Shown: positions 13,362-58,357 of the stretch, piece by piece | Layout of the letters: each line of letters opens with the position of its first letter | Numbering within the stretch: the stretch's first letter is position 1 | NCBI GenBank assembly: GCA_964439905.1 | Contig: CAYTPK010000017.1 | Coordinates: 72,039 to 136,038, forward strand | Origin: an uncultured Dehalococcoidia bacterium | GTDB taxonomy: Bacteria; Chloroflexota; Dehalococcoidia; Lucifugimonadales; GCA-2712585 | Length of the DNA stretch: 64,000 bases | Direction: 5' to 3' | Notes under the pieces: model-generated | Databases searched by the model: none | What the model was told of the DNA's origin: nothing | Seen by the model: the letters and a program-made list of their open reading frames with translations, nothing else | Made by a program: the position numbers and the translations under genes

Positions 13362-13414
13362 TCGACCCCCGGATTTTTAAAATACGTCAAGTGTATTAAG
13401 CAAGGAGTTTGTGC

Positions 13415-14506: not shown

Positions 14507-14536
14507 ACACATTTAGCCACTGAAAAGGATAGATGT

Positions 14537-16344: not shown

Positions 16345-17046
16345 ATGGTCCTTCTCACGGATCAAAATAGAAAAGAATTAAAGAGGAGATTCAGAAAAGA
16401 CCTCAAGAGCGACATAGTATTTAGCTTGTTTACTACAAATCCATCTCTCCTGACCATACCCGGACGAGAATGTCACGATTGCCCCCAAGCCCAGGTGTTC
16501 TTAGAAGAGATATCCTCGCTTTCGCCAAAGATTCAGTTCAAGACATACAACTTCTTTGATGACCTAGAATCGAAACGTGAATACGATATAGACAAAATAC
16601 CTGCGATTGTCACCGAATCTGAAAGTTCTAATCGCCTAGTATTTTATGGTATACCGCAAGGGCATCAGTTCCCAGTGTTTTTGGAAGGAATGGAAAGGAT
16701 GTCCAGAGGAGTCAGTAGCTTGACCAACACGACTAGGAAAGGATTTAGCAGGCTTGACCGATTGGTTTCATTGCGTGTTTTTGTATCTTCTAATTCGATA
16801 ACTGCTGCAGCAGTAGCTAAATTGGCACAGGCTGCGGCATTGCAAAGCCGTTTAATTCGGACTGAGATAATTGATGTTAACGGGTTCCCTGAGTTAAGTC
16901 GAGCCTATAATGTTTCTGCGGTTCCTAAAACTATTATAAATAATATCGTTCACATTGATGGTATGATTTCTGAGGCAGTATTGTTAGAAAGAGTTCTTGA
17001 ATCAGGAATAAGCTCTATAGAAACCTCAGGCCAGAGATTTAAATAA
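16345..17046 (+). CDS. Two-domain thioredoxin-fold protein (glutaredoxin-like / PDO-like), only first CxxC retained
   Basis: 233 aa. 'GRECHDCPQAQ' in domain 1. Domain 2 has 'VFVSSNSITAAAVAKLA' where PDO-type proteins carry CPYC, then 'VSAVPKTIIN' (cis-Pro loop). Confidence 0.55.
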   Translation: MVLLTDQNRKELKRRFRKDLKSDIVFSLFTTNPSLLTIPGRECHDCPQAQVFLEEISSLSPKIQFKTYNFFDDLESKREYDIDKIPAIVTESESSNRLVFYGIPQGHQFPVFLEGMERMSRGVSSLTNTTRKGFSRLDRLVSLRVFVSSNSITAAAVAKLAQAAALQSRLIRTEIIDVNGFPELSRAYNVSAVPKTIINNIVHIDGMISEAVLLERVLESGISSIETSGQRFK

Positions 17047-19195: not shown

Positions 19196-19655
19196 CGTTG
19201 GTCGAGATAGAAAGTTTCTATTAGGCGCTGGTTTAGCTTTTTTTGCGGCTATGCTCTACGGTATCAGTCAGGTCATAGCCAAAAAAGGTGTGACGGAACA
19301 CGGAGTACCTCCAATTGTGTTCCTTTTTGTAGCTCTTTTTTTTGCCACATTTTTGATGTTTATCACAGGATGGAGCGGAATTAAATCCATTAAATACCTG
19401 CCTCGTAGGGAAGTAATACTATTGGGGTGTGCGGGTTTAACTTCTGGTCTCTCTGTTACACTGTTAGTAAGCGCTCTTGATAGAGCTCCTGTAGTGGTGG
19501 TGACTCCGATAGTAGCGCTTAATCCAATAGTGAGTTTAACCCTTATTTATTTTTTCTTACGGCGCCTGGAAAAAGTCACCAAGAGGGTGGCATTGGGGAC
19601 TGTTATAGCATTGGGTGGAGCAATATTTGTGATTATAGGTAGTACAAAACTATGA
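19185..19655 (+). CDS. Half-size EamA-domain (DMT superfamily) membrane protein
   Basis: 156 aa, about 5 TM segments. Overlaps the preceding half-gene by 11 nt and purL by 4 nt (ATGA). Confidence 0.6.
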   Translation: MWNNVGRDRKFLLGAGLAFFAAMLYGISQVIAKKGVTEHGVPPIVFLFVALFFATFLMFITGWSGIKSIKYLPRREVILLGCAGLTSGLSVTLLVSALDRAPVVVVTPIVALNPIVSLTLIYFFLRRLEKVTKRVALGTVIALGGAIFVIIGSTKL

Positions 19656-21868
19656 ATTCCATATCTAAAACTATACTTGATGAAATAGCGCTTAGCAGGG
19701 AAGAGTATGATCTTATTACAGATCGATTAGGGCGTGAGCCTAATCCACTTGAACTTGGAATGTTTGGAGCCCTTTGGAGTGAACATTGTGGATATAAGCA
19801 TTCTAAACCACTACTAAAACTTTTTCCGTCCACGAGCCCCAAAGTTTTATTTCCTCCTGGGTCCGAAAACGCTGGTGCTATTGATATTGGAGATGGCCTA
19901 GCCGTAGTTTTTAAAATAGAATCTCATAATCATCCTTCCGCAATCGAACCTTTACAGGGGGCGGCTACGGGGGTTGGCGGCATAGTGCGAGATATATTGG
20001 CTATGGGTGCAAGGCCGATAGCATTACTAAATTCGTTAAGATTCGGTCCATTAGCAGAGTTGAATAATAGACATTTGGTTAAGGGAGTGGTGAGTGGCAT
20101 CTCGTGGTACGGTAATTGTATAGGGGTTCCGGATGTTGGTGGAGAGATCTTCTTTTCTGAAAGCTATTCGGGTAATCCCATAGTTAATGCCCTTTGTGTT
20201 GGTTTGGTTGAGAAGGAAAAATTGATTAGAGCTACAGTTGGAGAACCGGGTAATTTGTTGTTATTGATTGGATCAGAGACTGGTCGTGATGGTATTCATG
20301 GGGCGTCTGGGCTTGCTTCTAGAACGTTCGAAGATGAAAGAGAAATGAGGCCAGCCGTACAAGTGGGGAATCCATTTTTAGAGAAAGTTCTGATTGAAGC
20401 TTGCTTGGAAGTAGTTGACTTTGACGGTTTGATTGGAATGCAGGATCTGGGAGCGGCAGGTTTAACGAGCTCTACGGTTGAATGCGCAGAGAAAGGGGGA
20501 AACGGTATCGTTATTGATGTTAGCAAGATCTCCCGTCGAGAACAGGGTATGACACCATACGAGATCATGTTGTCAGAATCGCAGGAACGGATGTTGTTAA
20601 TAGTGAAACCAGGAGAAAAGGATAGGCTTAACGAGATGCTTGCGAAATGGAATTTATCTTCTATGGAAATTGGATATGTAATACCAGAGAACAACGTAGA
20701 AGTTTACGACGGCGAGAAAAAGGAAGCATCACTACCAGTTGAAATTCTTACTCACCCAAAGCTTTATCGACTAAAAGGAAAACTGTCAGAAAAATCCATA
20801 GAATTAAGAAAATTTCCTTTATCTGAAGTCAAACTATTAGATATTAGTATAAATCAAATACTTTTATCTTTATTGAAGTCTCCTAATATTGCCAGTAAAG
20901 CCATGATTTACCGGCAATATGACCATCAGGTACAGACCAATACTGTACAAAAGCCTGGGGCGAGTGACGCTGCCTTGATTCGCATAAAGGGCACCCAAAG
21001 AGCCTTGGCTTTGAGCACTGATGGAAATAGTAGATTTTGCTATCTTGATCCCTACCATGGCGGGATGATAGCGGTAGCTGAAGCTTGTAGAAACGTTTCG
21101 TGTGTCGGAGCGCTGCCCGTAGCTCTGACTGACTGCCTGAATTTTGGAAATCCGGAGAACCCTGAGATATATTATCAACTGGAATGGGTCATTCGGGGAA
21201 TATCGAAAGCTTGCAAAGTTTTAGGTATTCCGGTAGTTGGCGGAAACGTTAGTCTTTACAATGAGGCACAGGGTAATCCTATCGACCCTACTCCTGTTAT
21301 TGGCGTTCTTGGCGTTTTAGAAGAATTGTCAAAGGCTACTGATATGGCTTTCAAAAACATTGGAGACTTAGTAGTGATGTTTGGGGATAATCGACTTAGG
21401 GGTCGGGCTCGTGACTTGGCTGGAAGTGAATATATAAAACTGTTTCATGGACTAGTGGTTGGACGTCCGGCAATAGATTTGAATCTGGAAGCGAAAGTAC
21501 AATTGCTGTGTAGAACGGCGATAGATCAAGGACTAATCCAGTCAGCACACGACTGCTCTGAGGGAGGGCTTGCCGTGGCCATAGCCGAATCGTCAATAGC
21601 AAGTGGCCTAGGGTTCCGGTCTAGTGTTGATATAAACGGGAGATATGATGCAGCATTTTTTGGTGAAGCACAGTCACGAATTGTAACTTCTATTAAACCT
21701 CAAAACTTGGAATCAATCCGGTGCATGGCGAGAGATCTGGAGGTTCCCATCATAGAATTAGGGTGTGTTGATGAGTCTTATTTTCGATTTGGGGATATAG
21801 ATATTCCAGTTACTTGTTTGGAAGAGGCGTGGAAACAAGGAATTGGCTGGCCAGAGTTTGGTGGGTAG
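19652..21868 (+). CDS. purL: Phosphoribosylformylglycinamidine synthase, synthetase subunit (small PurL)
   Basis: 738 aa. 'EPNPLELGMFGALWSEHCGYKHS', 'KIESHNHPSAIEP', 'GA.TGVGGI.RD'. Confidence 0.95.
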   Translation: MNSISKTILDEIALSREEYDLITDRLGREPNPLELGMFGALWSEHCGYKHSKPLLKLFPSTSPKVLFPPGSENAGAIDIGDGLAVVFKIESHNHPSAIEPLQGAATGVGGIVRDILAMGARPIALLNSLRFGPLAELNNRHLVKGVVSGISWYGNCIGVPDVGGEIFFSESYSGNPIVNALCVGLVEKEKLIRATVGEPGNLLLLIGSETGRDGIHGASGLASRTFEDEREMRPAVQVGNPFLEKVLIEACLEVVDFDGLIGMQDLGAAGLTSSTVECAEKGGNGIVIDVSKISRREQGMTPYEIMLSESQERMLLIVKPGEKDRLNEMLAKWNLSSMEIGYVIPENNVEVYDGEKKEASLPVEILTHPKLYRLKGKLSEKSIELRKFPLSEVKLLDISINQILLSLLKSPNIASKAMIYRQYDHQVQTNTVQKPGASDAALIRIKGTQRALALSTDGNSRFCYLDPYHGGMIAVAEACRNVSCVGALPVALTDCLNFGNPENPEIYYQLEWVIRGISKACKVLGIPVVGGNVSLYNEAQGNPIDPTPVIGVLGVLEELSKATDMAFKNIGDLVVMFGDNRLRGRARDLAGSEYIKLFHGLVVGRPAIDLNLEAKVQLLCRTAIDQGLIQSAHDCSEGGLAVAIAESSIASGLGFRSSVDINGRYDAAFFGEAQSRIVTSIKPQNLESIRCMARDLEVPIIELGCVDESYFRFGDIDIPVTCLEEAWKQGIGWPEFGG

Positions 21869-38458: not shown

Positions 38459-39436
38459 ATGACTGAAATCTTCTCTGAGCGTTCGTTCTGTGATATATCT
38501 GGAACTTGGTCAAAGCTTCTTTCAAAAACCGCAATAAATACGCCGTTCCAATTAATTGAATTTCTTGAGACTTGGTTTTCGGAGCTTGGTTCTGGTAGCG
38601 ATACACATATTCTTCATGCCACTTCGAAGCCAATGGAAGGAATTGCTCCGTTGAGAAGTCGAGGGCCAAGTTTCACGTTTTTAGGAGATCAAGATGTATG
38701 TGATTTCGCCGATTTCCTCATTACCCCAGGGAATGAAATAGGATTCTTTGGTGCATTATTGGATTACTTGGAGGACATCCAATGTAGAGATTTGAAATTA
38801 TTCTCCATTCCGGAAGAATCGTTGACCTTAAAAATTCTGCCTGCAGTTGCTAGGGAAAGAGGGTATAAGGTTGATGTAGCGAAAAGTGATGTGGTTCCAG
38901 GCATGGGATTACCCGATTCTTGGGATCAATTCTTATCAAGTCTATCAAAAAAGAATCGCCATGAATTACGGCGTAAATTCAGAAGATTAGGAGCAGTTGA
39001 AGGGGTAGCCTGGTTGGAACTGACTCATCCCGATGAGGTTCAGTTGTCGATGGATGACTTCTTACGATTACTTAAACTGAGCGGTCAACATAAGGAGGAA
39101 TTTCTTACACCGGATAGAGATAGATTTTTTCGAGAGGTGGCTTATAAGTTCGCATCTGGGGGCTTTCTTAGGTTGTTTTTTTTGGAGATCAATGGCCAGA
39201 AAGTAGCTGCAGTCATGTGTTTTGATTATGGGAATTCGAGATTCTTGTATAACAGTGGATACGATCCAGAATTTAGATACTATAGTGTCGGTCTTCTGTT
39301 AAAAGCATTTTCTATTCAAAATGCTATTGAGTCAGGTTTAAACTATTATGATTTTCTCAGAGGTGGTGAGCCATACAAATATGATTTGGGGGGTATAGAT
39401 AGACTAGTTTTTAATTTAAATGTGGAAATTTACTGA
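38459..39436 (+). CDS. GNAT-fold protein of the BioF2-like/CelD/FemAB-like acetyltransferase type (Acetyltransf_6-like)
   Basis: 325 aa. 'KKNRHELRRKFRRL', C-terminal 'FLYNSGYDPEF..YSVG.LL....I..AIE.G...YDFLRG.E.YKY..G'. Stop shares one nt with the next ATG (TGATG). Confidence 0.55.
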   Translation: MTEIFSERSFCDISGTWSKLLSKTAINTPFQLIEFLETWFSELGSGSDTHILHATSKPMEGIAPLRSRGPSFTFLGDQDVCDFADFLITPGNEIGFFGALLDYLEDIQCRDLKLFSIPEESLTLKILPAVARERGYKVDVAKSDVVPGMGLPDSWDQFLSSLSKKNRHELRRKFRRLGAVEGVAWLELTHPDEVQLSMDDFLRLLKLSGQHKEEFLTPDRDRFFREVAYKFASGGFLRLFFLEINGQKVAAVMCFDYGNSRFLYNSGYDPEFRYYSVGLLLKAFSIQNAIESGLNYYDFLRGGEPYKYDLGGIDRLVFNLNVEIY

Positions 39437-40647
39437 TGGCTTTAAGAGTAGCTATGGTAAGTTTTCATTCATGTCCTGCTCTAGCTCCAGGATCGGGAAA
39501 AGTGGGTGGTATGAATGTTTATATAATTGAATTAGCCAGAGAACTCAGTTTATTGGGGCTAGAAATCGATATTTTTACCAGAAATCATTTGGAATCGGAT
39601 CAGGATGTCTCTTTTCTTGGACATGGCGTCAGAATAGTACATCTTTACGGTGGACCGCCAGATGCTGAACTACATGTTTTTAGAAGTTATATAGATGGAT
39701 TCTATAAAAAAGTGTTACGCTTCCAATCCGAACACAAAATTACATATGACGTGGTTCATTCACATTATTGGATGTCTGGCTTGATTGGTCAGAAATTTTC
39801 TCAGAAAAATAAGATACCTCATATATTGAATTTCCATACCTTGGAGCATTTGAAGCGGAAGGCTATCGGGCCTACAGATGCTTTTAGTGATAGAGAAGCT
39901 ATAGAGATGGACTTAATAGGGTTAGCAGATCTTATAGTGACCTCGAGCGGCCATGAAATGCAGGCTATCATTAATTTACACCCTTCTGCTAGGAGAAAAA
40001 TAGTCGTGATTCCGTGTGGAGTCAATCTTTCAACGTTCAAGCCGATTGAGCGGCAAGTCGCACGAGACAGATTGAGAATTTACGATGATAAAATAATTTT
40101 GTTTGTCGGTAGGTTGGAACCCCTAAAGGGTATAGATTTTCTGTTTAAAGTCGTGGAGGCTTTGGGGACAGATCGGGGATTTAAATTGTTAGTTGTAGGC
40201 GGTCAGTCGGAGCACGATCCAGAAGTTTTACGTTTAAAAGCTCTTTCGGAAACGATGGGATTGTCAAAATCAGTGGTTTTTATTGACCGAGTTGACAGGG
40301 AGGATTTGGCCGTATTTTTCTCAGCGGCCGACGTATGTCTTGTGCCCTCTTACTACGAGAGTTTTGGCCTGGTAGCTCTCGAATCTATGGCCTGCGGAAC
40401 TCCGGTAATAGCCTCTCGAGTAGGCGGGTTGTCTTCGCTGATAAAACATGGTAAAACGGGATTCTTGATGCCATGGAGGTGTCCAGAATCCTACGCGGAT
40501 AGATTGATGATGATTTTTCACTGTAGACAACTTAGTGAGAGTATGAAGACTGCCTCTATTCGCAATGCGACTTCGTTCTCTTGGAATCGGATAGCTCCCT
40601 TGGTGCTTTCATCCTACGAATCATTACTCCCAACTCGTGGGTCCTGA
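39436..40647 (+). CDS. GT4 glycosyltransferase, MshA-like (D-inositol-3-phosphate N-acetylglucosaminyltransferase type)
   Basis: 403 aa. N-terminus 'LRVAMVSFHSCPALAPGSGKVGGMNVYIIELARELS..G.EIDIFTR' closely follows the MshA signature as I remember it. C-terminal 'YYESFGLVALESMACGTPVIASRVGGL'. Confidence 0.7.
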   Translation: MALRVAMVSFHSCPALAPGSGKVGGMNVYIIELARELSLLGLEIDIFTRNHLESDQDVSFLGHGVRIVHLYGGPPDAELHVFRSYIDGFYKKVLRFQSEHKITYDVVHSHYWMSGLIGQKFSQKNKIPHILNFHTLEHLKRKAIGPTDAFSDREAIEMDLIGLADLIVTSSGHEMQAIINLHPSARRKIVVIPCGVNLSTFKPIERQVARDRLRIYDDKIILFVGRLEPLKGIDFLFKVVEALGTDRGFKLLVVGGQSEHDPEVLRLKALSETMGLSKSVVFIDRVDREDLAVFFSAADVCLVPSYYESFGLVALESMACGTPVIASRVGGLSSLIKHGKTGFLMPWRCPESYADRLMMIFHCRQLSESMKTASIRNATSFSWNRIAPLVLSSYESLLPTRGS

Positions 40648-41330
40648 TGGATAACTTTTGGGATAGATTGCACCCCCGGCAGGCATTCAAAAGCATGGGC
40701 CAGCATTTTAGGCGCAAAATAGTTTCGGGATTCCTTATTGTTTTACCCCTCATGGCTACGATACTGGTCATGAAGTTCTTTTTCGACATTATAGACCCAA
40801 TACCGCGGGATTTTCTTGAAGGTATTATTGGCCGAGAACTACCTGGTGTTGGAATCGCCTTTTTTATTATTTTTATCTATCTATCAGGGTTGGTAGGCAG
40901 TTATGTAATTGGGGTACGTCTAATATCTGTTGGACATAAATTAGCAGATAGAATACCTTTTGTAAGGGCTATCTATAGAACTGCAAAACAGACCGTTGAT
41001 TCACTCATGATTTCTAACTGGTCTGAAAAATATAGCCGTGTAGTGTTGTTGGAGTTTCCAAGATTGAATGTTTTATCAATTGGATTTGTTACTGCGAACT
41101 TTAACACTAAAGACGGTATACCGATGATAGCTGTTTACATTCCTACAGCACCTGTGCCCACATCAGGATTCTTGGTTATTGTACCTGAATCCAATTCTGT
41201 CTCAACCGATTTAAACGTGGATGAAACTATGAGAATGGTCATATCAGGAGGAGTTCTGACTCCAGAGGGAATATTTGATAATATGAACTCTTCTGATCTT
41301 TATGAAGCGTTGAAGGAAAAAGAAGCCTAA
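40647..41330 (+). CDS. DUF502-family membrane protein
   Basis: The ATG at 40647 shares one nt with the upstream TGA. 'GFLIVLPLMATILV..FFFD.ID', 'IPFVRAIY...KQ', 'LLEFPR.....IGFVT', 'VYIPTAP.PTSGFL..VP'. Confidence 0.7.
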   Translation: MDNFWDRLHPRQAFKSMGQHFRRKIVSGFLIVLPLMATILVMKFFFDIIDPIPRDFLEGIIGRELPGVGIAFFIIFIYLSGLVGSYVIGVRLISVGHKLADRIPFVRAIYRTAKQTVDSLMISNWSEKYSRVVLLEFPRLNVLSIGFVTANFNTKDGIPMIAVYIPTAPVPTSGFLVIVPESNSVSTDLNVDETMRMVISGGVLTPEGIFDNMNSSDLYEALKEKEA

Positions 41331-42259
41331 GGCTTGATAGGCAAATGGAACCAATGAAGTCGATGTATGGATTCGAATCCCATTGATTTGTAGAGTCTTA
41401 TAGCAGCCTCATTTGATTCATCTACTTCAAGTTCTACAAAGCTGGCACCAATGGATACAAGGTGTTTTAAACCAGCCACCAAAAGCGGCTTTCCCAATCC
41501 CTGTCCTCTATAGAAAGGGTCAATTCCAATCATAGATATGATCCCTTTAATTCCGTTAATAATTGGCATGGTCAATGTCCAGTTGTATCCAGCTATATTA
41601 TCCTGATGTATTAAGAATATTATTCCCGAATGTGATGTATTGCTCATGTTGGCACGGTAGCTAATTTCTTCTAGTGAATTCGGTGAGAAATTAAAGCTTC
41701 CACCAAAGGATGAATTTTGTATGGTTGTAAGAGCCTGATCATCCCCCGGGCTGCCATAGCTTCTCATACTGTAGTTTCCAGGCAGCGTTGGTTCCAGTAA
41801 ATTCCTAGGGGCCCATCGCATTTTAAGATAGGTATGTTCTCTATAGAAGTTACATTTATCGGTTAAAATTTCTATTGGTATTTGAGGAGGTGGTAGAAAG
41901 TCTAAGGTTGAAACCTCTAGATTTTTAACCTTTTCTAAAGCGGCGGCCAATAGGTCGTATACAAGGTTTGATCCTAGAAACCCACTCGTGCCTTTTATAT
42001 CCAATATGGCTCTATCTATCCTCGGCTCGTAGCATATTAGACTGGTTGCTCTTAGTTGGTTATCTTGTAGACATAGCAAGATATCTCGGTCTACGTCAAC
42101 GTGAGGCTGTCTTAACTGTTCCGCAAGTGCAGTCTTTGTAATGGGCCCTGTTTCTCCGTCCGCTATTCTAAGTTGATTTTCCAAGCCCAAGAGGATATCT
42201 AGGTCTTTCCACTCAAAAGATTTGATTATCAAAGATTTGCTTTGTGGAGGGTTAACCAC
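41327..42259 (-). CDS. Tandem-GNAT acetyltransferase, MshD-like (mycothiol synthase type)
   Basis: The ORF runs to 42415, but its first 52 codons are Cys/Thr/Ser-rich and overlap the divergent gene. GTG at 42259 follows AGAGGAAG. This gives about 310 aa with two GNAT halves. C-terminal 'IGIDPFYRGQGLGKPLLVAGLKHL...G...VELEVDESNEAAIRLYKSMGF'. Confidence 0.6.
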   Translation of the reverse strand: MVNPPQSKSLIIKSFEWKDLDILLGLENQLRIADGETGPITKTALAEQLRQPHVDVDRDILLCLQDNQLRATSLICYEPRIDRAILDIKGTSGFLGSNLVYDLLAAALEKVKNLEVSTLDFLPPPQIPIEILTDKCNFYREHTYLKMRWAPRNLLEPTLPGNYSMRSYGSPGDDQALTTIQNSSFGGSFNFSPNSLEEISYRANMSNTSHSGIIFLIHQDNIAGYNWTLTMPIINGIKGIISMIGIDPFYRGQGLGKPLLVAGLKHLVSIGASFVELEVDESNEAAIRLYKSMGFESIHRLHWFHLPIKP

Positions 42260-42373
42260 TAATTGTCTTCTTCCTCTGGCTTGGTCACAATAATATTGAC
42301 CCGCATTGACACACATGTGGGATTGTAGCAGAGTAGTTGTGCACGAACAATCAGTAGATAGGGAGGTTGCAGA

Positions 42374-43069
42374 TTGCTTAAGGCGCCCAAGAGGGCATTG
42401 GTCATTACCCCGCACCCGGACGATGCGGAAATTTCTTGTGGAGGAACAGTTGCTAAGTGGATCAACTCGGGGACTCAGGTTTTCTACGTGCTATGTACAG
42501 ATGGTAGCAAGGGGACTGATGATCCTAATCTAGAAGCTGAATCATTAAGGACTATCCGGAAATTGGAGCAGATAGAAGCGGCAGATACATTGGGAGTTAA
42601 AAAAGTTGTCATGCTGGGCTACCCTGATGGAGAGCTTGAGGATAGTAGAGAATTCAGAGGTAGACTAGTTAGAGAAATACGAAGATTTAAACCGGATATT
42701 GTTTTATGTCCGGACCCGCATCGTAGGACATTTTATTTTCATAGAGATCACCGTATAACAGGTATTGTGGCACAGGACGCTGTTTTCCCATATGCCAGAG
42801 ATAGATTGCATTTTAACGAGCATGAATTAGAAGGACTAACCCCCCATAAAACTGGCATGATTCTGTTTTGGGGAGCAGAGGAACCTGATGTAGTCATTGA
42901 TATTTCCGAGTTTATGGATCTCAAGTTGGATTCGTTGGGTTGCCATAAAAGCCAACTTTCGGGCCTAGATCAGGCCTTCCAACGTATTCGTGCATCAGGT
43001 GAACAAGCTGGAAAACATCTTGGTTTAAAATACGCGGAAGCCTTTCGAAAGGTTGTCTTTAGAACTTAA
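42374..43069 (+). CDS. LmbE/PIG-L-family N-acetylglucosaminyl deacetylase (MshB/BshB-like)
   Basis: 231 aa. TTG start 7 nt after AGGGAGG. 'ALVITPHPDDAEISCGGT', 'GY.DGEL', 'HRDH' metal and catalytic motifs. Confidence 0.8.
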   Translation: MLKAPKRALVITPHPDDAEISCGGTVAKWINSGTQVFYVLCTDGSKGTDDPNLEAESLRTIRKLEQIEAADTLGVKKVVMLGYPDGELEDSREFRGRLVREIRRFKPDIVLCPDPHRRTFYFHRDHRITGIVAQDAVFPYARDRLHFNEHELEGLTPHKTGMILFWGAEEPDVVIDISEFMDLKLDSLGCHKSQLSGLDQAFQRIRASGEQAGKHLGLKYAEAFRKVVFRT

Positions 43070-43142
43070 AAATCCTTGTACTCGTGAGTTTGATGTACGA
43101 TTCCGGTAGGGGAATGACCAAAATGAAAGCTTCAACTCTAAT

Positions 43143-43838
43143 ATGATCAAAGCAATATTCTTTGACTTTTATAATACGCTTGTTCATTTTTACCCCACCG
43201 TGGAAGATATTCAACTGTGCGCATGCAAAGAAATTGGTCTTACAGTAACTAAAGAAGGAGTGATGAGGGGTTACGAAAAAGCTGATGGATTTTTCAATTT
43301 AGAAAACAGCAGAAAACCTATCATATATAGGTCCGAACAAGAGAGGAAGGAGTTCTTCGCTGTTTATGAAAAAATGATACTAGAGGGGGCTGGTATAACT
43401 GTGAGCTTTGCCCTAGCGGCTCAAGCCTGGGAACTCACTACATTAATTCCCAGGAGATTTAGATTATTTGGAGATGTGCGACCTACTCTGAAAAAGCTTA
43501 AGGAACTAGGTCTTACATTAGGTATAATCACCAACTTGAACCAGGATATGGAGGTTTTATTGAATGAATTGGACCTAGAGGAAGTTATAGATGTCATAGT
43601 CACGCCCAGAGAGGCGGGAGCAGAAAAACCACATCCATCCATATTTCTGCGAGCTTTGGAAAAAGCGGGAGTGACTCCTCAAGAGGCAATTCATGTGGGG
43701 GACCAAGTTTTATCCGACGCGCAAGGGGCGAAATCTGTGGGTATCAACCCGATTCTTATAATTCGAGATATTCACGTAGGTAGAGAGAATGACGTGAAGA
43801 TCATCAGAACTATGGAGGAGATATTATTCCTAACATAA
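43143..43838 (+). CDS. HAD-superfamily hydrolase, subfamily IA; motif I reads D-F-Y (haloacid-dehalogenase-like rather than D-x-D)
   Basis: 231 aa. 'IKAIFFDFYNTLV', 'GIITN', 'KP.P.IF', 'HVGDQVLSDAQGAKSVG'. Confidence 0.7.
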   Translation: MIKAIFFDFYNTLVHFYPTVEDIQLCACKEIGLTVTKEGVMRGYEKADGFFNLENSRKPIIYRSEQERKEFFAVYEKMILEGAGITVSFALAAQAWELTTLIPRRFRLFGDVRPTLKKLKELGLTLGIITNLNQDMEVLLNELDLEEVIDVIVTPREAGAEKPHPSIFLRALEKAGVTPQEAIHVGDQVLSDAQGAKSVGINPILIIRDIHVGRENDVKIIRTMEEILFLT

Positions 43839-54432: not shown

Positions 54433-54627
54433 TTATTCCTCAGTTTCCTTTAAACAGTTATGGCATATGTACGCAATAGCAAGCATTTCTCCCAAACTCA
54501 TTATACGTCCACAATTTATAGCATTTGTGTTTTGACTTGGTTGATGAAATCTATTTCCACAGTAATGACAAGTGGCTGTTTGTAGTGATCCAATATTTTC
54601 TGTGCATACAGAGCAAGAAGTTTCCAT
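54433..54627 (-). CDS. Small Cys-rich zinc-ribbon protein
   Basis: 64 aa. 'CSVC...(11)..CHYCG' and 'CG....(17)..CHNC'. Packed between cca and the oxidoreductase (1-nt and 5-nt gaps). Confidence 0.45.
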   Translation of the reverse strand: METSCSVCTENIGSLQTATCHYCGNRFHQPSQNTNAINCGRIMSLGEMLAIAYICHNCLKETEE

Positions 54628-54628
54628 T

Positions 54629-55891
54629 CTATGTCCTTTTTTGTAATTTCAGGTAAGTTTCCGCGAGCTGTATCTCTTCTGAAAGTGTTGATATAGTTCC
54701 CTCCAACCTGCGTGCCAATATTTGCTGGAGTATTATTTTAATATCAGGGCCTTTTGAGGCTCCTAGATTTTTCAGAGTATTGCTGCTAATAGATGGGTGA
54801 ATGTCTCTGTATTCATCTAGGTATAAACAAATATTCTTACGGGTGTGTTTAAGGTCGGTTAAGTATTTGAAAGCGTTTAAACTATGTATAGAAACATTTT
54901 TCAAGAGTAGGTATACATCTATGGGCGGTAGTGATGGCTTGTTTAACAACGTTTCTTTTTGAGAAAGGTATGACATATCTCTTAGGACTCCAGCCCAGGG
55001 TTTAGGGGCGTTAATCAGCGATATCAAACTGGCAGTTTCTTCTGATGACAACTTATATGCCAGCGTTGATAAATATGCCAGCTTATCCTCGCCGCCTTTT
55101 TTCAGATATTTGCCCCAATTTCTGTGGAATAAGGAGCTGTGCATAGAAGATAGAATACCTAGAGAAGACGCTCTAAGGAACATTGATGCGCGTTCTGGTT
55201 CATCCAGCATTAAAGCTATCTCGTTACGTACCCTGTCACCGCTGATTGTAGACAGTGCCTTGGTTTTTATAGCTTTTAGAAGCAAACTGCGAGTATTGGT
55301 TTCAATCTTAAATTTGAGTCGTTGTTCGTATCTTATGGCTCGAAGGATTCTGGTTGGATCATCTAGAAAGCTTCGAGTATGTAATATTCGAACTACTTTA
55401 TTGGAGATATCTACAAGTCCACCAGTTGGGTCTAGTATGGACGGGTTATTAACATCGGTTAGCTCGATTGCTATCGAGTTGATAGAGAAATCCCTTCTCC
55501 ATAAATCTTGTTCCACGGACGCGTCGAAAACCATTGGTAGTACACCAGGCCTTTCGTAAGTTTCAGTACGAGCACGTGCGAAATCGAATTTTAGTCCATC
55601 TACGGTTATCTTTGAGGTCTTGAATTGCACGTAATAAGATGATTTAGCTCCAAGTTTTACCGCAAGTTCATCAATAAAATCCCTTGGATCAGTTTCAATT
55701 ATAAAATCAAAGTCACGTGGTTCGGATTTGAGGAGTAGATCTCTTACGGTACCGCCCACTAAAAATATCCTCGAGCCATGCCTTTGGGATAATTCAATAG
55801 CTCCGTCTATGATATCTCTGGTTCTTTCGGTTGTAGAAGCTTGCAGAAGAAACAGGAGATCTTCAGCCATGTGTTTGGACAGATTAGGCAT
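54629..55891 (-). CDS. cca: CCA-adding enzyme / poly(A) polymerase-family tRNA nucleotidyltransferase
   Basis: 420 aa. 'IFLVGGTVRDLLL', 'RDFDF', 'RRDFSINSIA', 'DP.RILRA.RY'. Confidence 0.8.
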   Translation of the reverse strand: MPNLSKHMAEDLLFLLQASTTERTRDIIDGAIELSQRHGSRIFLVGGTVRDLLLKSEPRDFDFIIETDPRDFIDELAVKLGAKSSYYVQFKTSKITVDGLKFDFARARTETYERPGVLPMVFDASVEQDLWRRDFSINSIAIELTDVNNPSILDPTGGLVDISNKVVRILHTRSFLDDPTRILRAIRYEQRLKFKIETNTRSLLLKAIKTKALSTISGDRVRNEIALMLDEPERASMFLRASSLGILSSMHSSLFHRNWGKYLKKGGEDKLAYLSTLAYKLSSEETASLISLINAPKPWAGVLRDMSYLSQKETLLNKPSLPPIDVYLLLKNVSIHSLNAFKYLTDLKHTRKNICLYLDEYRDIHPSISSNTLKNLGASKGPDIKIILQQILARRLEGTISTLSEEIQLAETYLKLQKRT

Positions 55892-55923: not shown

Positions 55924-55953
55924 TTGACACTGGAATGTTATCGAGCATACAAT
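55924..55953 (+). promoter_or_regulatory. Candidate promoter (TTGACA-18 nt-TACAAT) for the DsbA-like gene
   Basis: Perfect -35 at 55924-55929 and TACAAT at 55948-55953. Followed by SD AAGGGAGG (55961-55968) and the ATG at 55974. Confidence 0.5.
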
Positions 55954-55973
55954 TTTCCCGAAGGGAGGTAATT

Positions 55974-56606
55974 ATGGATCACAAGAAGATTACAATTTTT
56001 TTCGACTATACCTGACCATTCGTATATAACGTGACTGTTTGGTTGCGAAGAGTTAGGGAATCTGGTGTAACCTTGCCCATTATTGACTGGCGACCTTTTA
56101 TGCTTGCTCAGATAAACCATAACGATGAGGATTCTGAGTGGAAGGCTTGGGAACAATCGGATGAACATACCCGAGGATTGCTTGCGTTTAAGGTCGGCAT
56201 ATCAGCTATGAAACAGGGTGGCAATTTGTATGATCAATTCCATATAAATGTCTTGGAAGCAAAGCATGTCGCCAGGAAAGATATTGGGAACTTGGACGTT
56301 CTCATGGATTGCGCGGAACGTGCTGGGTTGGATACGGAAAAACTACAGACTGATATATATGACCCCAGTTTGATTGAATTCATAGGTAGTAGTCATGTTG
56401 AAGCCGTTACTAGGTATGGAGCATTTGGGGTTCCCACTTTTGCTTTCGATAACGGCAACTCCGCATTCCTGAAATTAATCTATCCGCCTAAGGAGAGAGC
56501 GGCAGATATTTATAAAGACCTCATGAACATGATGTCTAATTGGGATAATATCGGTGAAGTAAAGAGGCCACAGCCTCCTTGGCCATCAGGTGTCAAGAGG
56601 GATTAA
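55974..56606 (+). CDS. DsbA-like thioredoxin-fold protein with in-frame TGA (56013-56015) at the catalytic Cys position; selenoprotein candidate (or pseudogene)
   Basis: ATG at 55974 with a strong SD. Reads 'MDHKKITIFFDYT-TGA-PFVYNVTVWLRRV...', where DsbA/FrnE-type proteins carry 'F.D..CP(F/W)..'. The stop-free ORF from GTG 56031 lacks the active-site strand and helix. C-terminal 'FGVPTFAF' cis-Pro loop. Confidence 0.55.
56030..56047 (+). promoter_or_regulatory. Candidate bacterial SECIS-like hairpin (7 bp, GUUU loop) 15 nt downstream of the TGA
   Basis: CGUGACU-GUUU-GGUUGCG. Pairs are C30-G47, G31-C46, U32.G45, G33.U44, A34-U43, C35-G42, U36.G41. Loop G/U sits about 22-25 nt after the UGA, similar to E. 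coli fdhF geometry. An alternative longer hairpin at 56041-56072 has an AGGG loop. Confidence 0.3.
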
Positions 56607-56619
56607 TGGAAAGGTGTTA

Positions 56620-57303
56620 ATGGCTGATCGTCTTGAAGGAAAATTAGGAGTGCAATTTGCAAATCGCAGATTGTTGGATGAGGCTCTAACGCATTCGTCT
56701 TATTTCCATGAGTTTCCAGATCACGACATACCATGTAATGAAAGGTTGGAATTTCTCGGAGATTCGGTTCTAGGTTTTGTGATTGCCGACGAGTTATTCC
56801 GACGATTCCCTCTAATGAAAGAAGGCCAACTCACCGAACTCCGTGCCCACCTTGTACGAAGAGAAACGCTTGCTACGCTGGCCAACAGACTTTGTTTAGG
56901 TTCATTCTTATTGATGGGACGAGGGGAAGATCTAAGTGGGGGCCGTAAACGAGATTCGAATCTTTCATCAGCGCTTGAAGCTGTTATAGGGGCAGTTTAT
57001 TTGGATAAAGGTCATCATATATCCAGGGAATTAGTTTTGCGTTTGTGGTCTGATCATGTGCAAAACATTGATGATAAGGGAATTCCTAAGGATCCGAAGT
57101 CAGAATTACAGGAGCTGATTCAAGCTCAAGGGTCCGATGCCCCAATATACAATCTGGTGACTGAGGATGGACCACCCCATGACCGTTACTTTACGATAGA
57201 AGTTTACGTTAATGGAGAATCTTTGGGTATAGGCGTTGGTAAACGTAAATTAGATGCGGAACGTGGCGCTGCTAGGGATGCACTCTCCAATTTGAGACAT
57301 TGA
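56620..57303 (+). CDS. rnc: Ribonuclease III
   Basis: The ORF opens at 56590. The ATG at 56620 ('MADRLEGKLG') clears the upstream gene. Signature 'NERLEFLGDSVL'. C-terminal dsRBD 'DPKSELQE......P.Y.......GP.H...F...V.V'. Confidence 0.92.
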   Translation: MADRLEGKLGVQFANRRLLDEALTHSSYFHEFPDHDIPCNERLEFLGDSVLGFVIADELFRRFPLMKEGQLTELRAHLVRRETLATLANRLCLGSFLLMGRGEDLSGGRKRDSNLSSALEAVIGAVYLDKGHHISRELVLRLWSDHVQNIDDKGIPKDPKSELQELIQAQGSDAPIYNLVTEDGPPHDRYFTIEVYVNGESLGIGVGKRKLDAERGAARDALSNLRH

Positions 57304-57397
57304 ATAAGTGAAGAGCTATTTGGGCGCATAATTATTATGTGCATCCATTGTTAAGAAAAGCGGGTGAATTTGTAAAAGGAAGGCTTAGTGCTAGATT

Positions 57398-58357
57398 ATG
57401 CGGAAGTTTCTTAATCATAAAAAGGAAGAAATTCGTTCTAAAACTAAAGAGTCTACACAGAAAAGTCGACTCGCTTGGTTCGGTCGTATAATGAGTATAG
57501 TTGCCTCTGATAGGCCCAAAGAGAACCTTTGGGAAGATTTGGAAGAAATCTTGATTTCTGCAGATGTCGGCGTGGAAACTTCTATTGATCTAATAGAAAG
57601 CCTGAAGAAATGTTGTAGCAAAGAGTCCTTAACCGATTCAGATAACATCTATGAAACTCTGAAATCAATGCTTTTTACGCATCTTTCTTATCCTTCACTG
57701 GAGGTCCCTCTCGGCTCGAGCAGTTCCTCCGCGTCTTCTCCGTACGTCATACTTGTCGTGGGGGTTAATGGGGTTGGTAAAACCACAACTATAGCTAAAT
57801 TGGCCCACTACTACAAAAGCGCAGGAAACAAGGTGATATTGGGAGCAGCGGATACCTTTAGGGCTGCGGCCATAGAACAATTGCAATACCACGGTAGTGT
57901 GATAGGAGTGGATGTTATCGCTCATCAGCATGGAGCAGATCCGGGTGCTGTAGCGTTCGATGCCTATCGAGCTAGTACAGCCCGGTCGGCTGATGTTTTG
58001 ATCATAGACACTGCTGGCAGATTGCACACAAAAAATAATCTGATGAAAGAAATTATTAAAATAAAGTCTGTTATAACTAAACTAGACAATAGTGCCCCTC
58101 ACGAAACTCTTTTAGTTTTGGACGCGACCACAGGAGTTAATGGTCTATATCAGGCAAAAGCTTTTACAGAAGCTCTGCAATGTCAGGGTGTTATATTAAG
58201 TAAAATGGATGGTACTTCTAGGGGCGGAATTGCAATTCCCATTCAGAGAGAACTGGGATTACCAATTCTCTATCTAGGTACCGGAGAAAGCATTGACGAT
58301 CTTGTCGGGTTTGACGCATGGGAGTTTATAGAAGCTTTATTGGGGCCCGTTAACTAA
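57398..58357 (+). CDS. ftsY: Signal recognition particle receptor FtsY
   Basis: 319 aa. 'LEE.LI.ADVG', 'VVGVNGVGKTTTIAKLA', 'DTFRAAA.EQL', 'IDTAGRLH', 'LSKMDGT.RGG'. Confidence 0.93.
   Translation: MRKFLNHKKEEIRSKTKESTQKSRLAWFGRIMSIVASDRPKENLWEDLEEILISADVGVETSIDLIESLKKCCSKESLTDSDNIYETLKSMLFTHLSYPSLEVPLGSSSSSASSPYVILVVGVNGVGKTTTIAKLAHYYKSAGNKVILGAADTFRAAAIEQLQYHGSVIGVDVIAHQHGADPGAVAFDAYRASTARSADVLIIDTAGRLHTKNNLMKEIIKIKSVITKLDNSAPHETLLVLDATTGVNGLYQAKAFTEALQCQGVILSKMDGTSRGGIAIPIQRELGLPILYLGTGESIDDLVGFDAWEFIEALLGPVN

What the first reader, a model, noticed from the sequence alone, without database searches (positions are those of the whole stretch)
55924..56606. DsbA-like oxidoreductase with UGA at the catalytic cysteine position: selenoprotein candidate
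Seen:
- A near-consensus promoter (TTGACA-18-TACAAT), a strong SD (AAGGGAGG) and an ATG at 55974 open a frame reading MDHKKITIFFDYT-TGA-PFVYNVTVWLRRV...
- That frame runs straight into the ORF-track protein (56031-56606).
- The stop-free ORF from GTG 56031 would lack the beta1 strand and the active-site helix N-terminus.
- A 7-bp hairpin (56030-56047, GUUU loop) places loop G/U about 22-25 nt after the UGA.
- A longer alternative hairpin (56041-56072, AGGG loop) also exists.

Established:
- DsbA/FrnE-type thioredoxin folds carry the redox Cys in 'F.D..CP(W/F)..' right after beta1.
- Sec replaces that Cys in many Trx-fold selenoproteins.
- DsbA-like selenoproteins have been reported from marine metagenomes.
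- Bacterial Sec insertion needs a SECIS hairpin just 3' of the UGA.
- UGA is otherwise a real stop here (see prfB).

Inference: this is a single-Sec (U-P-F-V, no resolving Cys) DsbA-like enzyme.

Speculation: actinobacterial DsbA-like mycoredoxin-type enzymes work with mycothiol, so a link to the Msh-like genes at 38-43 kb is conceivable.
Basis: partly seen in the sequence, partly recalled or inferred. Interest (0 to 1): 0.65.

Follow-up and report, generated by a model that had tools for sequence, protein, structure and literature searches.

The report
Selenocysteine DsbA-like enzyme gene in SAR202
The in-frame "stop" at 56013-56015 is almost certainly a selenocysteine codon in a small cytoplasmic thioredoxin-fold redox enzyme of a marine Dehalococcoidia (SAR202-type) bacterium; this selenoprotein type is already catalogued, though public databases routinely annotate it as a truncated protein.

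Summary
ATG 55974 opens a 210-codon frame with a single in-frame TGA at codon 14 (56013-56015). With Cys there, the Pfam DSBA match starts at beta1 and rises from 28 to 45 bits.

In 80 species-level Dehalococcoidia/SAR202 genomes, 79 carry a stop at this column. All are TGA; the exception is TGT (Cys). The 13-codon leader, start codon and Shine-Dalgarno are conserved, and no start is conserved downstream.

It is more stable than synonymous-codon controls, and a distant Cys-form ortholog lacks it. UGA is otherwise a normal stop here.

The enzyme has one catalytic residue (U-P-F-V, no resolving Cys). Its closest solved relative is the uncharacterised single-Cys DR2335 of Deinococcus.

The motif matches two catalogue entries: "DsbA 3, UxxV" (GOS 2008) and "DsbA-like form 2, DxxUP" (2026 review). 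So this is a new member of a known kind.

Not shown: selA, selB, selD or tRNA-Sec in this genome (absent from the window and untestable beyond it), the substrate, and any mycothiol link.

The parts
55924..55953 (+). Sigma-70-type promoter, TTGACA-18-TACAAT
   Evidence: 11 of 12 consensus positions. Both hexamers are conserved in the close relatives L081-L088.
55961..55968 (+). Shine-Dalgarno AAGGGAGG, 5 nt upstream of the ATG
   Evidence: Read directly from the sequence. An SD-like purine motif precedes the start in 79 of 80 distinct family sequences.
55974..56606 (+). Full coding sequence of the DsbA-like selenoprotein: 210 codons plus TAA, with Sec at codon 14
   Evidence: Translation. Pfam DSBA 44.7 bits over residues 6-160, against 28.2 bits for the GTG ORF. 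tblastn covers residues 1-207 in about 70 of 80 genomes.
55974..56012 (+). 13-codon N-terminal segment (MDHKKITIFFDYT) encoding beta1, upstream of the Sec codon
   Evidence: Conserved peptide M..(I/V)T.(F/Y)(F/Y)D(Y/F)(T/R) in 79 of 80 species. Entropy at codon positions 1/2/3 is 0.54/0.78/1.14, and the start codon lies exactly 13 codons before the Sec codon in 70 of 80.
56013..56015 (+). In-frame UGA, the proposed selenocysteine codon (catalytic residue, motif D-Y-T-U-P-F-V)
   Evidence: TGA in 80 of 81 sequences and TGT in L012. It aligns with the single Cys of P0015, P0057 and DR2335 Cys24. In the model of the Cys ortholog the residue sits at the N-terminus of helix alpha1.
56030..56047 (+). 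Family-conserved SECIS-like hairpin: 7 bp, GUUU loop, loop starting 21 nt after the UGA
   Evidence: -4.9 kcal/mol, z = -3.4. Column pair 22-31 forms a standard pair in 73 of 73 distinct sequences (GC 43, AU 24, GU 6), and pair 18-36 is CG 35 / UA 24. Synonymous-codon control: mean -9.5 against -5.7 kcal/mol. Close relatives change wobble pairs to Watson-Crick pairs.
56030..56057 (+). Alternative, more stable hairpin in the window copy (loop GUUG, spacing 26 nt) that overlaps the conserved one
   Evidence: -8.9 kcal/mol, and 0 of 200 shuffles fold as well. It meets all four published bSECIS criteria. Among close relatives it is the preferred fold only in L085-L087.
56562..56585 (+). Invariant C-terminal motif K-R-P-Q-P-P-W-P
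   Evidence: Invariant or nearly invariant columns K197-P204. An E(I/V)KRP tail is shared by DR2335 and most distant Cys-form relatives.
56620..57303 (+). rnc (RNase III), starting 14 nt after the selenoprotein stop; likely the same transcription unit
   Evidence: Pfam Ribonuclease_3 + dsrm in syntenic loci. It lies directly downstream on the same strand in 80 of 80 loci.
57398..58357 (+). ftsY (SRP receptor), the next gene in the conserved arrangement
   Evidence: Pfam SRP54_N + SRP54. It lies downstream on the same strand in 68 of 80 loci.
54629..55891 (-). Divergently transcribed CCA-adding/poly(A) polymerase-family gene that shares the intergenic region
   Evidence: Pfam PolyA_pol. It lies upstream on the opposite strand in 57 of 80 loci.

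Best explanation
The gene at 55974-56606 encodes a 210-residue cytoplasmic DsbA-like thioredoxin-fold protein. Codon 14 (UGA, 56013-15) is decoded as selenocysteine.

Shown here:
- One continuous, conserved reading frame crosses the UGA.
- The UGA column is TGA in 79 of 80 related species and Cys in the rest of the wider family.
- The residue sits at the N-terminus of helix alpha1, the canonical thioredoxin-fold active site.
- An RNA hairpin with a G/U-containing loop starting about 20 nt downstream is kept by compensatory and synonymous changes.
- UGA is otherwise a genuine stop in this genome.

Inferred:
- SelB bound to Sec-tRNA(Sec) recognises this hairpin on the translating mRNA and inserts Sec.
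- Chemistry: the enzyme has one nucleophile only (D-x-x-U-P-F-V, no second Cys at +3, no conserved Cys elsewhere). I infer the selenolate attacks a disulfide, a mixed disulfide or another oxidised substrate. That would form a selenenyl-sulfide, which an external low-molecular-weight thiol or partner protein resolves, as in monothiol glutaredoxin- or mycoredoxin-type catalysis.
- The physiological substrate and the thiol partner are unknown.

The gene heads a conserved dsbA-like > rnc > ftsY arrangement in Dehalococcoidia.
For: - Reading frame and domain. Pfam DSBA rises from 28.2 to 44.7 bits and starts at profile position 2 when the N-terminus is included. tblastn matches span residues 1-207.
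- Codon identity. 80 of 81 sequences have TGA, none has TAA or TAG, and one has TGT. Eight independent assemblies of close relatives also have TGA.
- Cys/Sec pairing. P0015 reads YFDYTCPFVYNATVWL and P0057 reads YYDYTCPFVYNVAIWL. All 38 motif-matched full-length distant relatives have a Cys. DR2335 Cys24, mutated to Ser in 7DKA, aligns to the same position.
- Translation of the leader. Third-position bias; the start codon is 13 codons upstream in 70 of 80; an SD-like motif in 79 of 80; no conserved downstream start.
- SECIS. Pair 22-31 is paired in 73 of 73 sequences with a GC/AU switch, and pair 18-36 switches between CG and UA at synonymous third positions. Mean MFE is -9.5 against -5.7 kcal/mol for synonymous resamples, with 48 of 73 sequences in their own lowest 5%. 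The distant Cys form L089 has the same peptide but no hairpin: -3.5 kcal/mol, with 94% of controls at least as stable. Loop position and content fit the published bSECIS model.
- UGA is a stop. 11 of 44 long frames end in TGA, and prfB carries the CTT TGA C frameshift site.
- Structure. AlphaFold pLDDT 85, DsbA architecture, Cys at the alpha1 N-terminus. The top fold match is DR2335, TM 0.80.
- Lineage. Dehalococcoidia MAGs with 46-49 selenoproteins are reported (PMC13326102).
- Catalogue. DsbA 3 / UxxV (PMC2398784) and DsbA-like form 2 / DxxUP (PMC13188914).
Against: - No selA, selB, selD or tRNA-Sec is in the window or in any of the roughly 1.7 Mb of relatives' flanks held. The rest of this genome could not be examined.
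- The one SAR202 genome in Peng 2016 scored negative for all selenium traits, though it is an incomplete single-cell genome.
- The window's copy of the conserved hairpin is weak: -4.9 kcal/mol with three G-U pairs, below the -7.5 threshold on its own. Its synonymous control is only marginal at 9.7%.
- Only 37 of 82 family sequences meet all four bSECIS criteria in my rough implementation.
- No Rfam hit.
- No protein-level evidence of selenium.
- The catalytic mechanism is inferred from motif and fold only. The closest solved homolog has no known function.
Confidence: 0.9

Rival explanations
1. UGA terminates a 13-codon upstream leader peptide. The real DsbA-like protein starts downstream (GTG 56031 or another start), as public annotation has it.
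For: Gene callers annotate all Sec-form homologs this way, at 166-195 aa. A GTG exists at 56031.
Against: - There is no conserved downstream start. The first in-frame ATG ranges from codon +8 to +79, and callers pick different starts in different species.
- The truncated product would lack beta1, the catalytic residue and the start of alpha1.
- The leader peptide is itself the conserved beta1/active-site motif, continuous with Cys-form orthologs.
- Exclusive use of TGA as the stop is unexplained under this reading.
Confidence: 0.04
2. UGA is recoded to something other than Sec. Candidates are Cys through a SelB-dependent or suppressor tRNA, or Trp/Gly through near-cognate read-through or an altered genetic code.
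For: The column is Cys in non-Sec relatives, so Cys insertion would be functional. The Sec machinery was not verified for this genome.
Against: - UGA is a normal stop in the window, and prfB keeps its UGA frameshift site. This excludes a reassigned code.
- The downstream hairpin fits SelB-type recoding.
- Dehalococcoidia are documented Sec users.
- The paper I checked for a Cys-at-UGA mechanism in Chloroflexi does not describe one.
Confidence: 0.04
3. The gene is a pseudogene, or the TGA is an assembly or sequencing error for TGC/TGT.
For: A single in-frame stop in one window could be an error. One relative (L014) has a second stop, TAA, 19 codons downstream of the TGA.
Against: - The same TGA is present in 79 species and in 8 independent assemblies of the window's own clade, from different samples and sources.
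- Promoter, SD, start and leader are conserved under a coding-like substitution pattern.
- Gene order with rnc is conserved in 80 of 80 loci.
Confidence: 0.01

Closest known systems
GOS selenoprotein family 'DsbA 3' (pfam01323, UxxV; Zhang & Gladyshev 2008, PMC2398784) and 'DsbA-like protein form 2' (PF01323, DxxUP; Zhang et al. 2026 review, PMC13188914)
   Same: Same Pfam domain, marine origin, and exactly the same Sec motifs. The window has D-Y-T-U-P-F-V, which is both DxxUP and UxxV. Neither has a resolving Cys.
   Different: I could not compare sequences with the catalogued representatives (MDP6049977.1, GOS reads). [quoted passage not shown] GOS listed only 5 Sec sequences. Here the Sec form is nearly fixed (79 of 80) across Dehalococcoidia species.
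DR2335 of Deinococcus radiodurans (PDB 7DK9; C24S mutant 7DKA)
   Same: It is the closest solved structure: phmmer E = 2e-16 and Foldseek TM 0.80 to the model of the Cys ortholog. It has a single catalytic residue in the same YFD(F/Y)x-C/U-P-(F/Y) context, the same C-terminal (K/R)RP tail, and it is predicted cytoplasmic.
   Different: It has Cys, not Sec. Identity is about 29%. It carries a longer insert after beta2. Its function is unknown (PMC8945050), so it does not settle the substrate.
Classical DsbA-like selenoproteins, 'form 1' / DsbA 1 (UxxC; COG2761 FrnE-like; Sargasso Sea 2005, PMC1088965)
   Same: PF01323 fold. Sec replaces the N-terminal active-site Cys. Marine metagenomic origin. 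A bacterial SECIS lies just 3' of the UGA.
   Different: Form 1 keeps the resolving Cys (UxxC) and can cycle through an intramolecular selenenyl-sulfide. The window protein has Val at +3 and must be resolved by an external partner.
Rv2466c (mycoredoxin-2-type, mycothiol-dependent DsbA-like reductase of M. tuberculosis; PDB 4NXI, 4ZIL)
   Same: Cytoplasmic DsbA-like fold and the next-best functional structural neighbour (TM about 0.69). Several relatives of the window protein hit Pfam PF22234 'Rv2466c-like'.
   Different: Rv2466c has CPWC. The window protein itself shows no PF22234 hit at E <= 0.1. A mycothiol pathway is not established in this genome.
Kappa-class glutathione transferase and HCCA isomerase (PDB 1R4W, 3RPN, 2IMD)
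   Same: DsbA-like fold with a single catalytic residue followed by Pro in an F-D-x-x-(S)-P-x-x-Y-type context. They act with an external thiol (GSH).
   Different: The catalytic residue is Ser, not Cys or Sec. The sequence match is weak (E about 1e-3) and the fold match is lower (TM about 0.6).
Periplasmic DsbA of E. coli and relatives
   Same: Thioredoxin fold with a helical insert, a cis-Pro loop region (GVPT), and the active site at the alpha1 N-terminus.
   Different: DsbA has a signal peptide and a CPHC disulfide, and it oxidises substrates using DsbB. The window protein starts directly with beta1, has one redox residue, and has no DsbB partner nearby.

Membership tests
Bacterial selenoprotein (SelB/SECIS-dependent UGA recoding) | In-frame UGA aligned with Cys in homologs | tested here: met
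   P0015, P0057, L012 (TGT), DR2335 Cys24 and 38 of 38 motif-matched distant relatives have Cys at the column.
Bacterial selenoprotein (SelB/SECIS-dependent UGA recoding) | Coding conservation on both sides of the UGA, and the stop is always UGA | tested here: met
   80 of 81 sequences have TGA and none has TAA or TAG. Leader entropy at codon positions 1/2/3 is 0.54/0.78/1.14. tblastn spans residues 1-207.
Bacterial selenoprotein (SelB/SECIS-dependent UGA recoding) | bSECIS hairpin 3' of the UGA: 3-9 nt loop with G in its first two positions, 4-16 bp stem, 16-37 nt spacing, MFE <= -7.5 kcal/mol (PMC13188914) | tested here: inconclusive
   The family hairpin shows covariation and beats synonymous controls. 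The window's conserved hairpin meets the loop, G and spacing criteria but is only -4.9 kcal/mol. An overlapping hairpin (56030-57, -8.9 kcal/mol) meets all four. 37 of 82 family sequences pass all four in my rough implementation.
Bacterial selenoprotein (SelB/SECIS-dependent UGA recoding) | selA, selB, selD and tRNA-Sec present in the same genome | not testable with these tools
   Absent from the 64-kb window and from the flanks of 88 loci. Only lineage-level literature is available.
Bacterial selenoprotein (SelB/SECIS-dependent UGA recoding) | UGA otherwise functions as a stop codon in the organism | tested here: met
   11 of 44 long frames end in TGA. prfB has the CTT TGA C +1 frameshift site at 4909-15.
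DsbA-like thioredoxin domain (Pfam PF01323) | HMM score above the gathering cut-off over the whole domain | tested here: met
   44.7 bits against a cut-off of 25.6; residues 6-160 match profile positions 2-174.
DsbA-like thioredoxin domain (Pfam PF01323) | beta-alpha-beta, helical insert, beta-beta-alpha architecture with the redox residue at the alpha1 N-terminus | tested here: met
   AlphaFold model of the Cys ortholog P0015: pLDDT 85, with E6-10, H15-31, E37-41, helices 69-148, E155-157, E163-165 and H173-189. All top Foldseek hits are DsbA-like proteins.
Classical DsbA / FrnE / selenoprotein 'DsbA-like form 1' | C(U)-x-x-C dithiol motif | tested here: not met
   The motif is U-P-F-V. No Cys at +3 in any of the 81 sequences. 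The only Cys in the window protein (LMDCAERAG) is not conserved.
Classical periplasmic DsbA | N-terminal signal peptide / periplasmic location | tested here: not met
   beta1 begins at residue 6 of the protein, so there is no room for a signal peptide. No dedicated signal-peptide predictor was available.
Selenoprotein family 'DsbA 3' (GOS) / 'DsbA-like form 2' | PF01323 domain with Sec motif UxxV / DxxUP | tested here: met
   D-Y-T-U-P-F-V in the window. D at -3 and P at +1 are present in all 81 sequences.
Selenoprotein family 'DsbA 3' (GOS) / 'DsbA-like form 2' | Sequence homology to the catalogued representatives (MDP6049977.1, GOS reads) | not testable with these tools
   No tool fetches proteins by accession, and neither paper has supplements held as text.
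DR2335-type single-Cys DsbA-like proteins | Single conserved Cys in (F/Y)D(F/Y)x-C-P-(F/Y) plus a C-terminal (K/R)RP tail; significant sequence and fold similarity | tested here: met
   phmmer E = 1.9e-16 over residues 6-201. Profile E = 6e-22. TM 0.80. The tail is conserved.
Rv2466c-like mycothiol-dependent reductases (PF22234) | CPWC motif and a PF22234 match | tested here: not met
   No PF22234 hit for the window protein at E <= 0.1, and the motif is UPFV. Some relatives carry a weak PF22234 hit.
Rv2466c-like mycothiol-dependent reductases (PF22234) | Mycothiol biosynthesis (MshA, MshB, MshC, MshD) in the genome | tested here: inconclusive
   MshA-like 324 bits against cut-off 462.5. PIG-L scores better as BshB1 (114 against 182.5). 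MshD-like 70 against 163. INO1 510 against 638. No MshC in the window.

The most novel reading that the evidence does not exclude
The most novel reading not excluded has three parts.

- The SAR202/Dehalococcoidia clade is the selenium form of an uncharacterised, widespread family of single-Cys 'DxxCP...EIKRP' DsbA-like enzymes (DR2335 type).
- That family has a redox function not yet described. One candidate is removal of coenzyme-A or another low-molecular-weight thiol from proteins, hinted at by three clusters of CoaE (dephospho-CoA kinase) fusions (P0099, P0104, P0150).
- Because the gene heads the conserved dsbA-like > rnc > ftsY arrangement, termination at the UGA when selenium is scarce could influence expression of RNase III and the SRP receptor through polarity.
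Probability: 0.1. Interest if true: 0.55.

Novelty: new member of a known kind. Interest (0 to 1): 0.3.

Why it matters
Practically, it shows a systematic annotation error. All 57 Sec-form homolog clusters found are stored as N-terminally truncated "DsbA family protein", for example MQF64525.1. These entries lack beta1 and the catalytic residue, and no NCBIfam model rescues them. So SAR202, one of the most abundant deep-ocean lineages, is under-counted for selenium use.

Biologically, the Sec form is nearly fixed (79 of 80 species) and sits in a conserved housekeeping locus. This suggests strong selection for selenium chemistry in a single-nucleophile redox enzyme whose function is still unknown, even for its crystallised Cys relative.

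It does not change what is known about recoding. The family type is already in selenoprotein catalogues.

Tried and rejected
- Rfam at gathering threshold over the whole window: no hit.
- ARAGORN on the window and on 80 loci: no tRNA-Sec.
- Pfam on all window ORFs of 150 aa or more: no SelA, SelB or SelD. The AIRS-domain protein at 19652-21865 is PurL.
- tblastn with E. coli SelA, SelB and SelD written from memory, against all held DNA: only EF-Tu-like G-domain hits.
- A home-made screen for other conserved in-frame TGAs across the held DNA. It recovered the DsbA-like family in 87 of 89 sequences as positive control. Everything else looked like off-frame shadows of real genes. My filter for those also removed the positive control, so the screen adds nothing.
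- The ORF-free gap at 33.5-34.9 kb is just rpsF-ssb-rpsR.
- NCBIfam on the protein: no family.
- A single fixed pairing register for the hairpin fits only about 63-67% of cells, because clades differ by a 1-nt bulge. I therefore relied on per-sequence folding with synonymous-codon controls.
- coaE as a conserved neighbour: 0 hits in any locus.
- Supplements of the 2026 review and of BSepDB are not held as text. No paper describes 7DK9.
- Mukai 2017 (PMC5424206) was checked for a Cys-at-UGA mechanism in Chloroflexi. It concerns SepRS/SepCysS only.
- I ran no further search on SelD, SelA or SelB. Hits would be ranked by similarity to E. coli and would not reach Dehalococcoidia.
Full report
**The observation**

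There is a TTGACA-18-TACAAT promoter at 55924-53 with 11 of 12 consensus positions. AAGGGAGG lies at 55961-68 and ATG at 55974. The frame reads MDHKKITIFFDYT-TGA-PFVYNVTVWLRRV and continues without another stop to TAA at 56604-06, 210 codons in all. The mechanical ORF list starts this gene only at GTG 56031. The 7-bp hairpin 56030-47 (GUUU loop) and the longer hairpin 56041-72 both fold as stated.

**The N-terminus belongs to the protein**

With Cys substituted at the UGA, the Pfam DSBA domain (PF01323) matches residues 6-160 to profile positions 2-174 at 44.7 bits. The GTG ORF alone gives 28.2 bits and starts at profile position 95.

A search of 5.8 billion proteins found 59 homologs. Fifty-seven are 138-195 aa and begin just after the UGA position (MYNATVWL, MWLAKV, VWLSKV, MLAQIN), as expected if gene callers cut them at the same stop. 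The two full-length ones have Cys at that column: P0015 reads YFDYTCPFVYNATVWL and P0057 reads YYDYTCPFVYNVAIWL.

**Comparative test**

A scan of one genome per species (GTDB set) confirmed 369 relatives, and the best 80 were kept. All are Dehalococcoidia, SAR202 or Chloroflexota MAGs and SAGs. tblastn covers query residues 1-207 in most of them, that is, across the stop.

- Translating each locus shows an in-frame stop at exactly the window's column in 79 of 80. The upstream peptide is conserved as M..(I/V)T.(F/Y)(F/Y)D(Y/F)(T/R)-*-P(F/Y)VYNA.
- All 79, plus the window, use TGA and never TAA or TAG. The exception, L012, has TGT.
- The eight codons before the stop evolve like coding sequence, with per-position entropy 0.54/0.78/1.14.
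- A start codon lies exactly 13 codons upstream in 70 of 80 distinct sequences (72 of the 80 use ATG). An SD-like motif precedes it in 79 of 80.
- No in-frame start is conserved downstream.

The window's closest relatives (82-91% protein identity) come from eight independent assemblies. They share gene order, promoter hexamers, GGGAGG, ATG and the TGA. Sequencing error and pseudogene are therefore excluded.

**The recoding signal**

An ungapped alignment of 48 nt from the UGA shows a hairpin at +18 to +35/36.

- Column pair 22-31 forms a standard pair in 73 of 73 distinct sequences, switching between G-C (43), A-U (24) and G-U (6). Pair 18-36 switches between C-G (35) and U-A (24). These two columns are the third positions of an Asn codon and an Ala codon.
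- Clades differ by a 1-nt bulge, so one fixed register fits only about two thirds of cells.
- I therefore folded each sequence and compared it with 300 resamples that keep the peptide but redraw synonymous codons from that locus's usage. Mean MFE is -9.5 against -5.7 kcal/mol. 48 of 73 sequences lie in the lowest 5% of their own controls.
- A distant Cys-form ortholog (L089, TGC) encodes nearly the same peptide but has no hairpin: -3.5 kcal/mol, and 94% of controls fold at least as well. This is a single control.
- Within the window's own clade, substitutions convert wobble pairs to Watson-Crick pairs: U-G to U-A in L085, G-U to A-U in L081, and U-G to C-G in L088.

[quoted passage not shown] The window's conserved hairpin meets everything except the energy (-4.9 kcal/mol). 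An overlapping hairpin, 56030-57, has loop GUUG and spacing 26 at -8.9 kcal/mol and meets all four. In my rough implementation 37 of 82 family sequences pass all four. A large clade with an AUGUG loop fails only the G-position rule. Rfam has no match.

**UGA is otherwise a stop**

Eleven of 44 long frames in the window end in TGA. prfB (5003-5947) carries the classical GGAG...CTT TGA C +1 frameshift site at 4909-15. A reassigned genetic code is excluded.

**Sec machinery**

This is the main gap. No tRNA-Sec, selA, selB or selD is in the window or in about 1.7 Mb of relatives' flanks. I could not reach the rest of any genome.

The literature gives lineage-level support only. BSepDB lists two Dehalococcoidia MAGs with 49 and 46 selenoprotein genes among the ten richest bacteria (PMC13326102). 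Many Chloroflexi have SelA, SelB and SelD (Peng 2016 supplement). The one SAR202 single-cell genome in that study scored negative for every selenium trait, but it is an incomplete SAG.

**What kind of enzyme**

The motif is D-Y-T-U-P-F-V, with no second Cys at +3 in any family member. The window protein's only Cys is not conserved.

An AlphaFold model of the natural Cys ortholog (pLDDT 85, pTM 0.83) has the DsbA architecture. The Cys sits at the N-terminus of alpha1, and beta1 starts at residue 6, which leaves no room for a signal peptide.

The closest solved protein by sequence (E = 2e-16) and fold (TM 0.80) is DR2335 of Deinococcus radiodurans. PDB 7DK9 reads YFDFLCPYAW, and 7DKA is its C24S mutant. 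DR2335 is described as a predicted cytoplasmic DsbA-like protein with a single conserved Cys and no functional data (PMC8945050, PMC6300522). The next neighbours are Rv2466c, HCCA-isomerase-like proteins and kappa GST.

A search of 1.84 billion representatives found 994 related clusters. All 38 full-length ones matched by my motif pattern have one Cys in DxxCP, and most end in E(I/V)KRP. The Dehalococcoidia clade is therefore the Sec form of a broad single-Cys family.

I infer monothiol-type catalysis: the selenolate attacks the substrate, and an external thiol or partner protein resolves the selenenyl-sulfide. This is inference from motif and fold, not shown.

**Context**

rnc follows on the same strand in 80 of 80 loci, ftsY in 68 of 80, and a divergent cca-family gene lies upstream in 57 of 80. 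This points to an old, vertically inherited locus.

Three distant Cys-form clusters are fusions with dephospho-CoA kinase. However, coaE is never a neighbour in the loci held.

- The GT4 at 39436-40644 is MshA-like but below cut-off (324 against 462.5 bits).
- The PIG-L deacetylase scores better as BshB1.
- The GNAT is weakly MshD-like.
- No Cys ligase is present in the window.

**What is known**

DsbA-like selenoproteins with UxxC were reported from the Sargasso Sea (PMC1088965). The GOS study lists "DsbA 3, pfam01323, UxxV" with 5 Sec sequences and 72 Cys homologs (PMC2398784). A 2026 review lists "DsbA-like protein form 2, PF01323, DxxUP" (PMC13188914). Both signatures match the window protein exactly, though I could not compare sequences directly.

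Public protein records for the clade are truncated "DsbA family protein" entries such as MQF64525.1. No NCBIfam model covers them.

**Verdict**

This is a genuine selenoprotein gene (confidence about 0.9) of an already catalogued type, so it is a new member of a known kind. The open points are the Sec machinery in this genome and the enzyme's substrate.

Noticed in passing
window 4909-4915 (prfB, 5003-5947 plus the upstream frame): prfB carries the classical programmed +1 frameshift site GGAG...CTT TGA C. The shifted frame reads DLARKEKEI...FWDDPKAAQ into the RF2 body.
   Followed up: partly
window 13409-16277 and 38459-43835: Two clusters together resemble inositol-based or sugar-thiol biosynthesis. 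The first has inositol-3-phosphate synthase, a GT4 and a phosphatidylinositol-phosphate-synthase-like gene. The second has a FemAB-type GNAT, an MshA-like GT4, DUF502, an MshD-like GNAT, a BshB1-like PIG-L deacetylase and a HAD phosphatase. All score below NCBIfam equivalog cut-offs, and there is no Cys ligase. Which product they make (phosphatidylinositol glycolipid or a low-molecular-weight thiol) is open.
   Followed up: partly
window 16345-17043 (+): A 233-aa protein matches TIGR02187 'PDO_seleno_TRX' over its full length (158 bits, cut-off 185). That family has selenoprotein members. Here it is a Cys form, with CHDC in the first domain and a degenerate second active site (SSNSITAAA).
   Followed up: partly
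L012:10040-10042 compared with L015:10028-10030: L012 has TGT (Cys) where its close relative L015 has TGA. They fall in one >90% identity protein cluster that mixes 209-aa Cys forms with 190-aa truncated forms. L012 still keeps the SECIS-like hairpin (-9.4 kcal/mol), which suggests a very recent Sec-to-Cys switch.
   Followed up: partly
L014:10097-10099: This relative has a second in-frame stop (TAA, KKSYG*EIL) 19 codons after the TGA. It may be a pseudogene or an assembly error in that MAG.
   Followed up: no
proteins P0099, P0104, P0150 (about 415 aa, from the representative search): These are fusions of dephospho-CoA kinase (CoaE, PF01121) with the single-Cys DxxCP DsbA-like domain, forming three 50%-identity clusters. 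They hint at a functional link to coenzyme A. coaE is not a neighbour in any Dehalococcoidia locus held.
   Followed up: partly
window 56562-56585: The C-terminal motif KRPQPPWP is invariant or nearly invariant across the family. A related E(I/V)KRP tail is present in DR2335 and in most distant Cys-form relatives. Its role is unknown, and this part of the model has low pLDDT.
   Followed up: no
window 55974-58357; loci L001-L080: The selenoprotein gene is always immediately upstream of rnc (80 of 80) and usually of ftsY (68 of 80), with only 14 nt between its stop and the rnc start in the window. Termination at the UGA could in principle affect downstream expression.
   Followed up: partly
window 54433-54627 (-): A 64-aa Cys-rich ORF (CSVC...CHYC...CHNC, zinc-ribbon-like) lies between the alcohol dehydrogenase gene and cca. 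It has no Pfam hit on record and is conserved near the locus in about 30 of 80 relatives.
   Followed up: no
L023 and L037, about 10040-10100: Two relatives replace the conserved Trp-Leu (VWL) with Leu-Leu (AAVLLEAA) in the SECIS region. They form a different, longer hairpin, possibly a variant recoding element.
   Followed up: no
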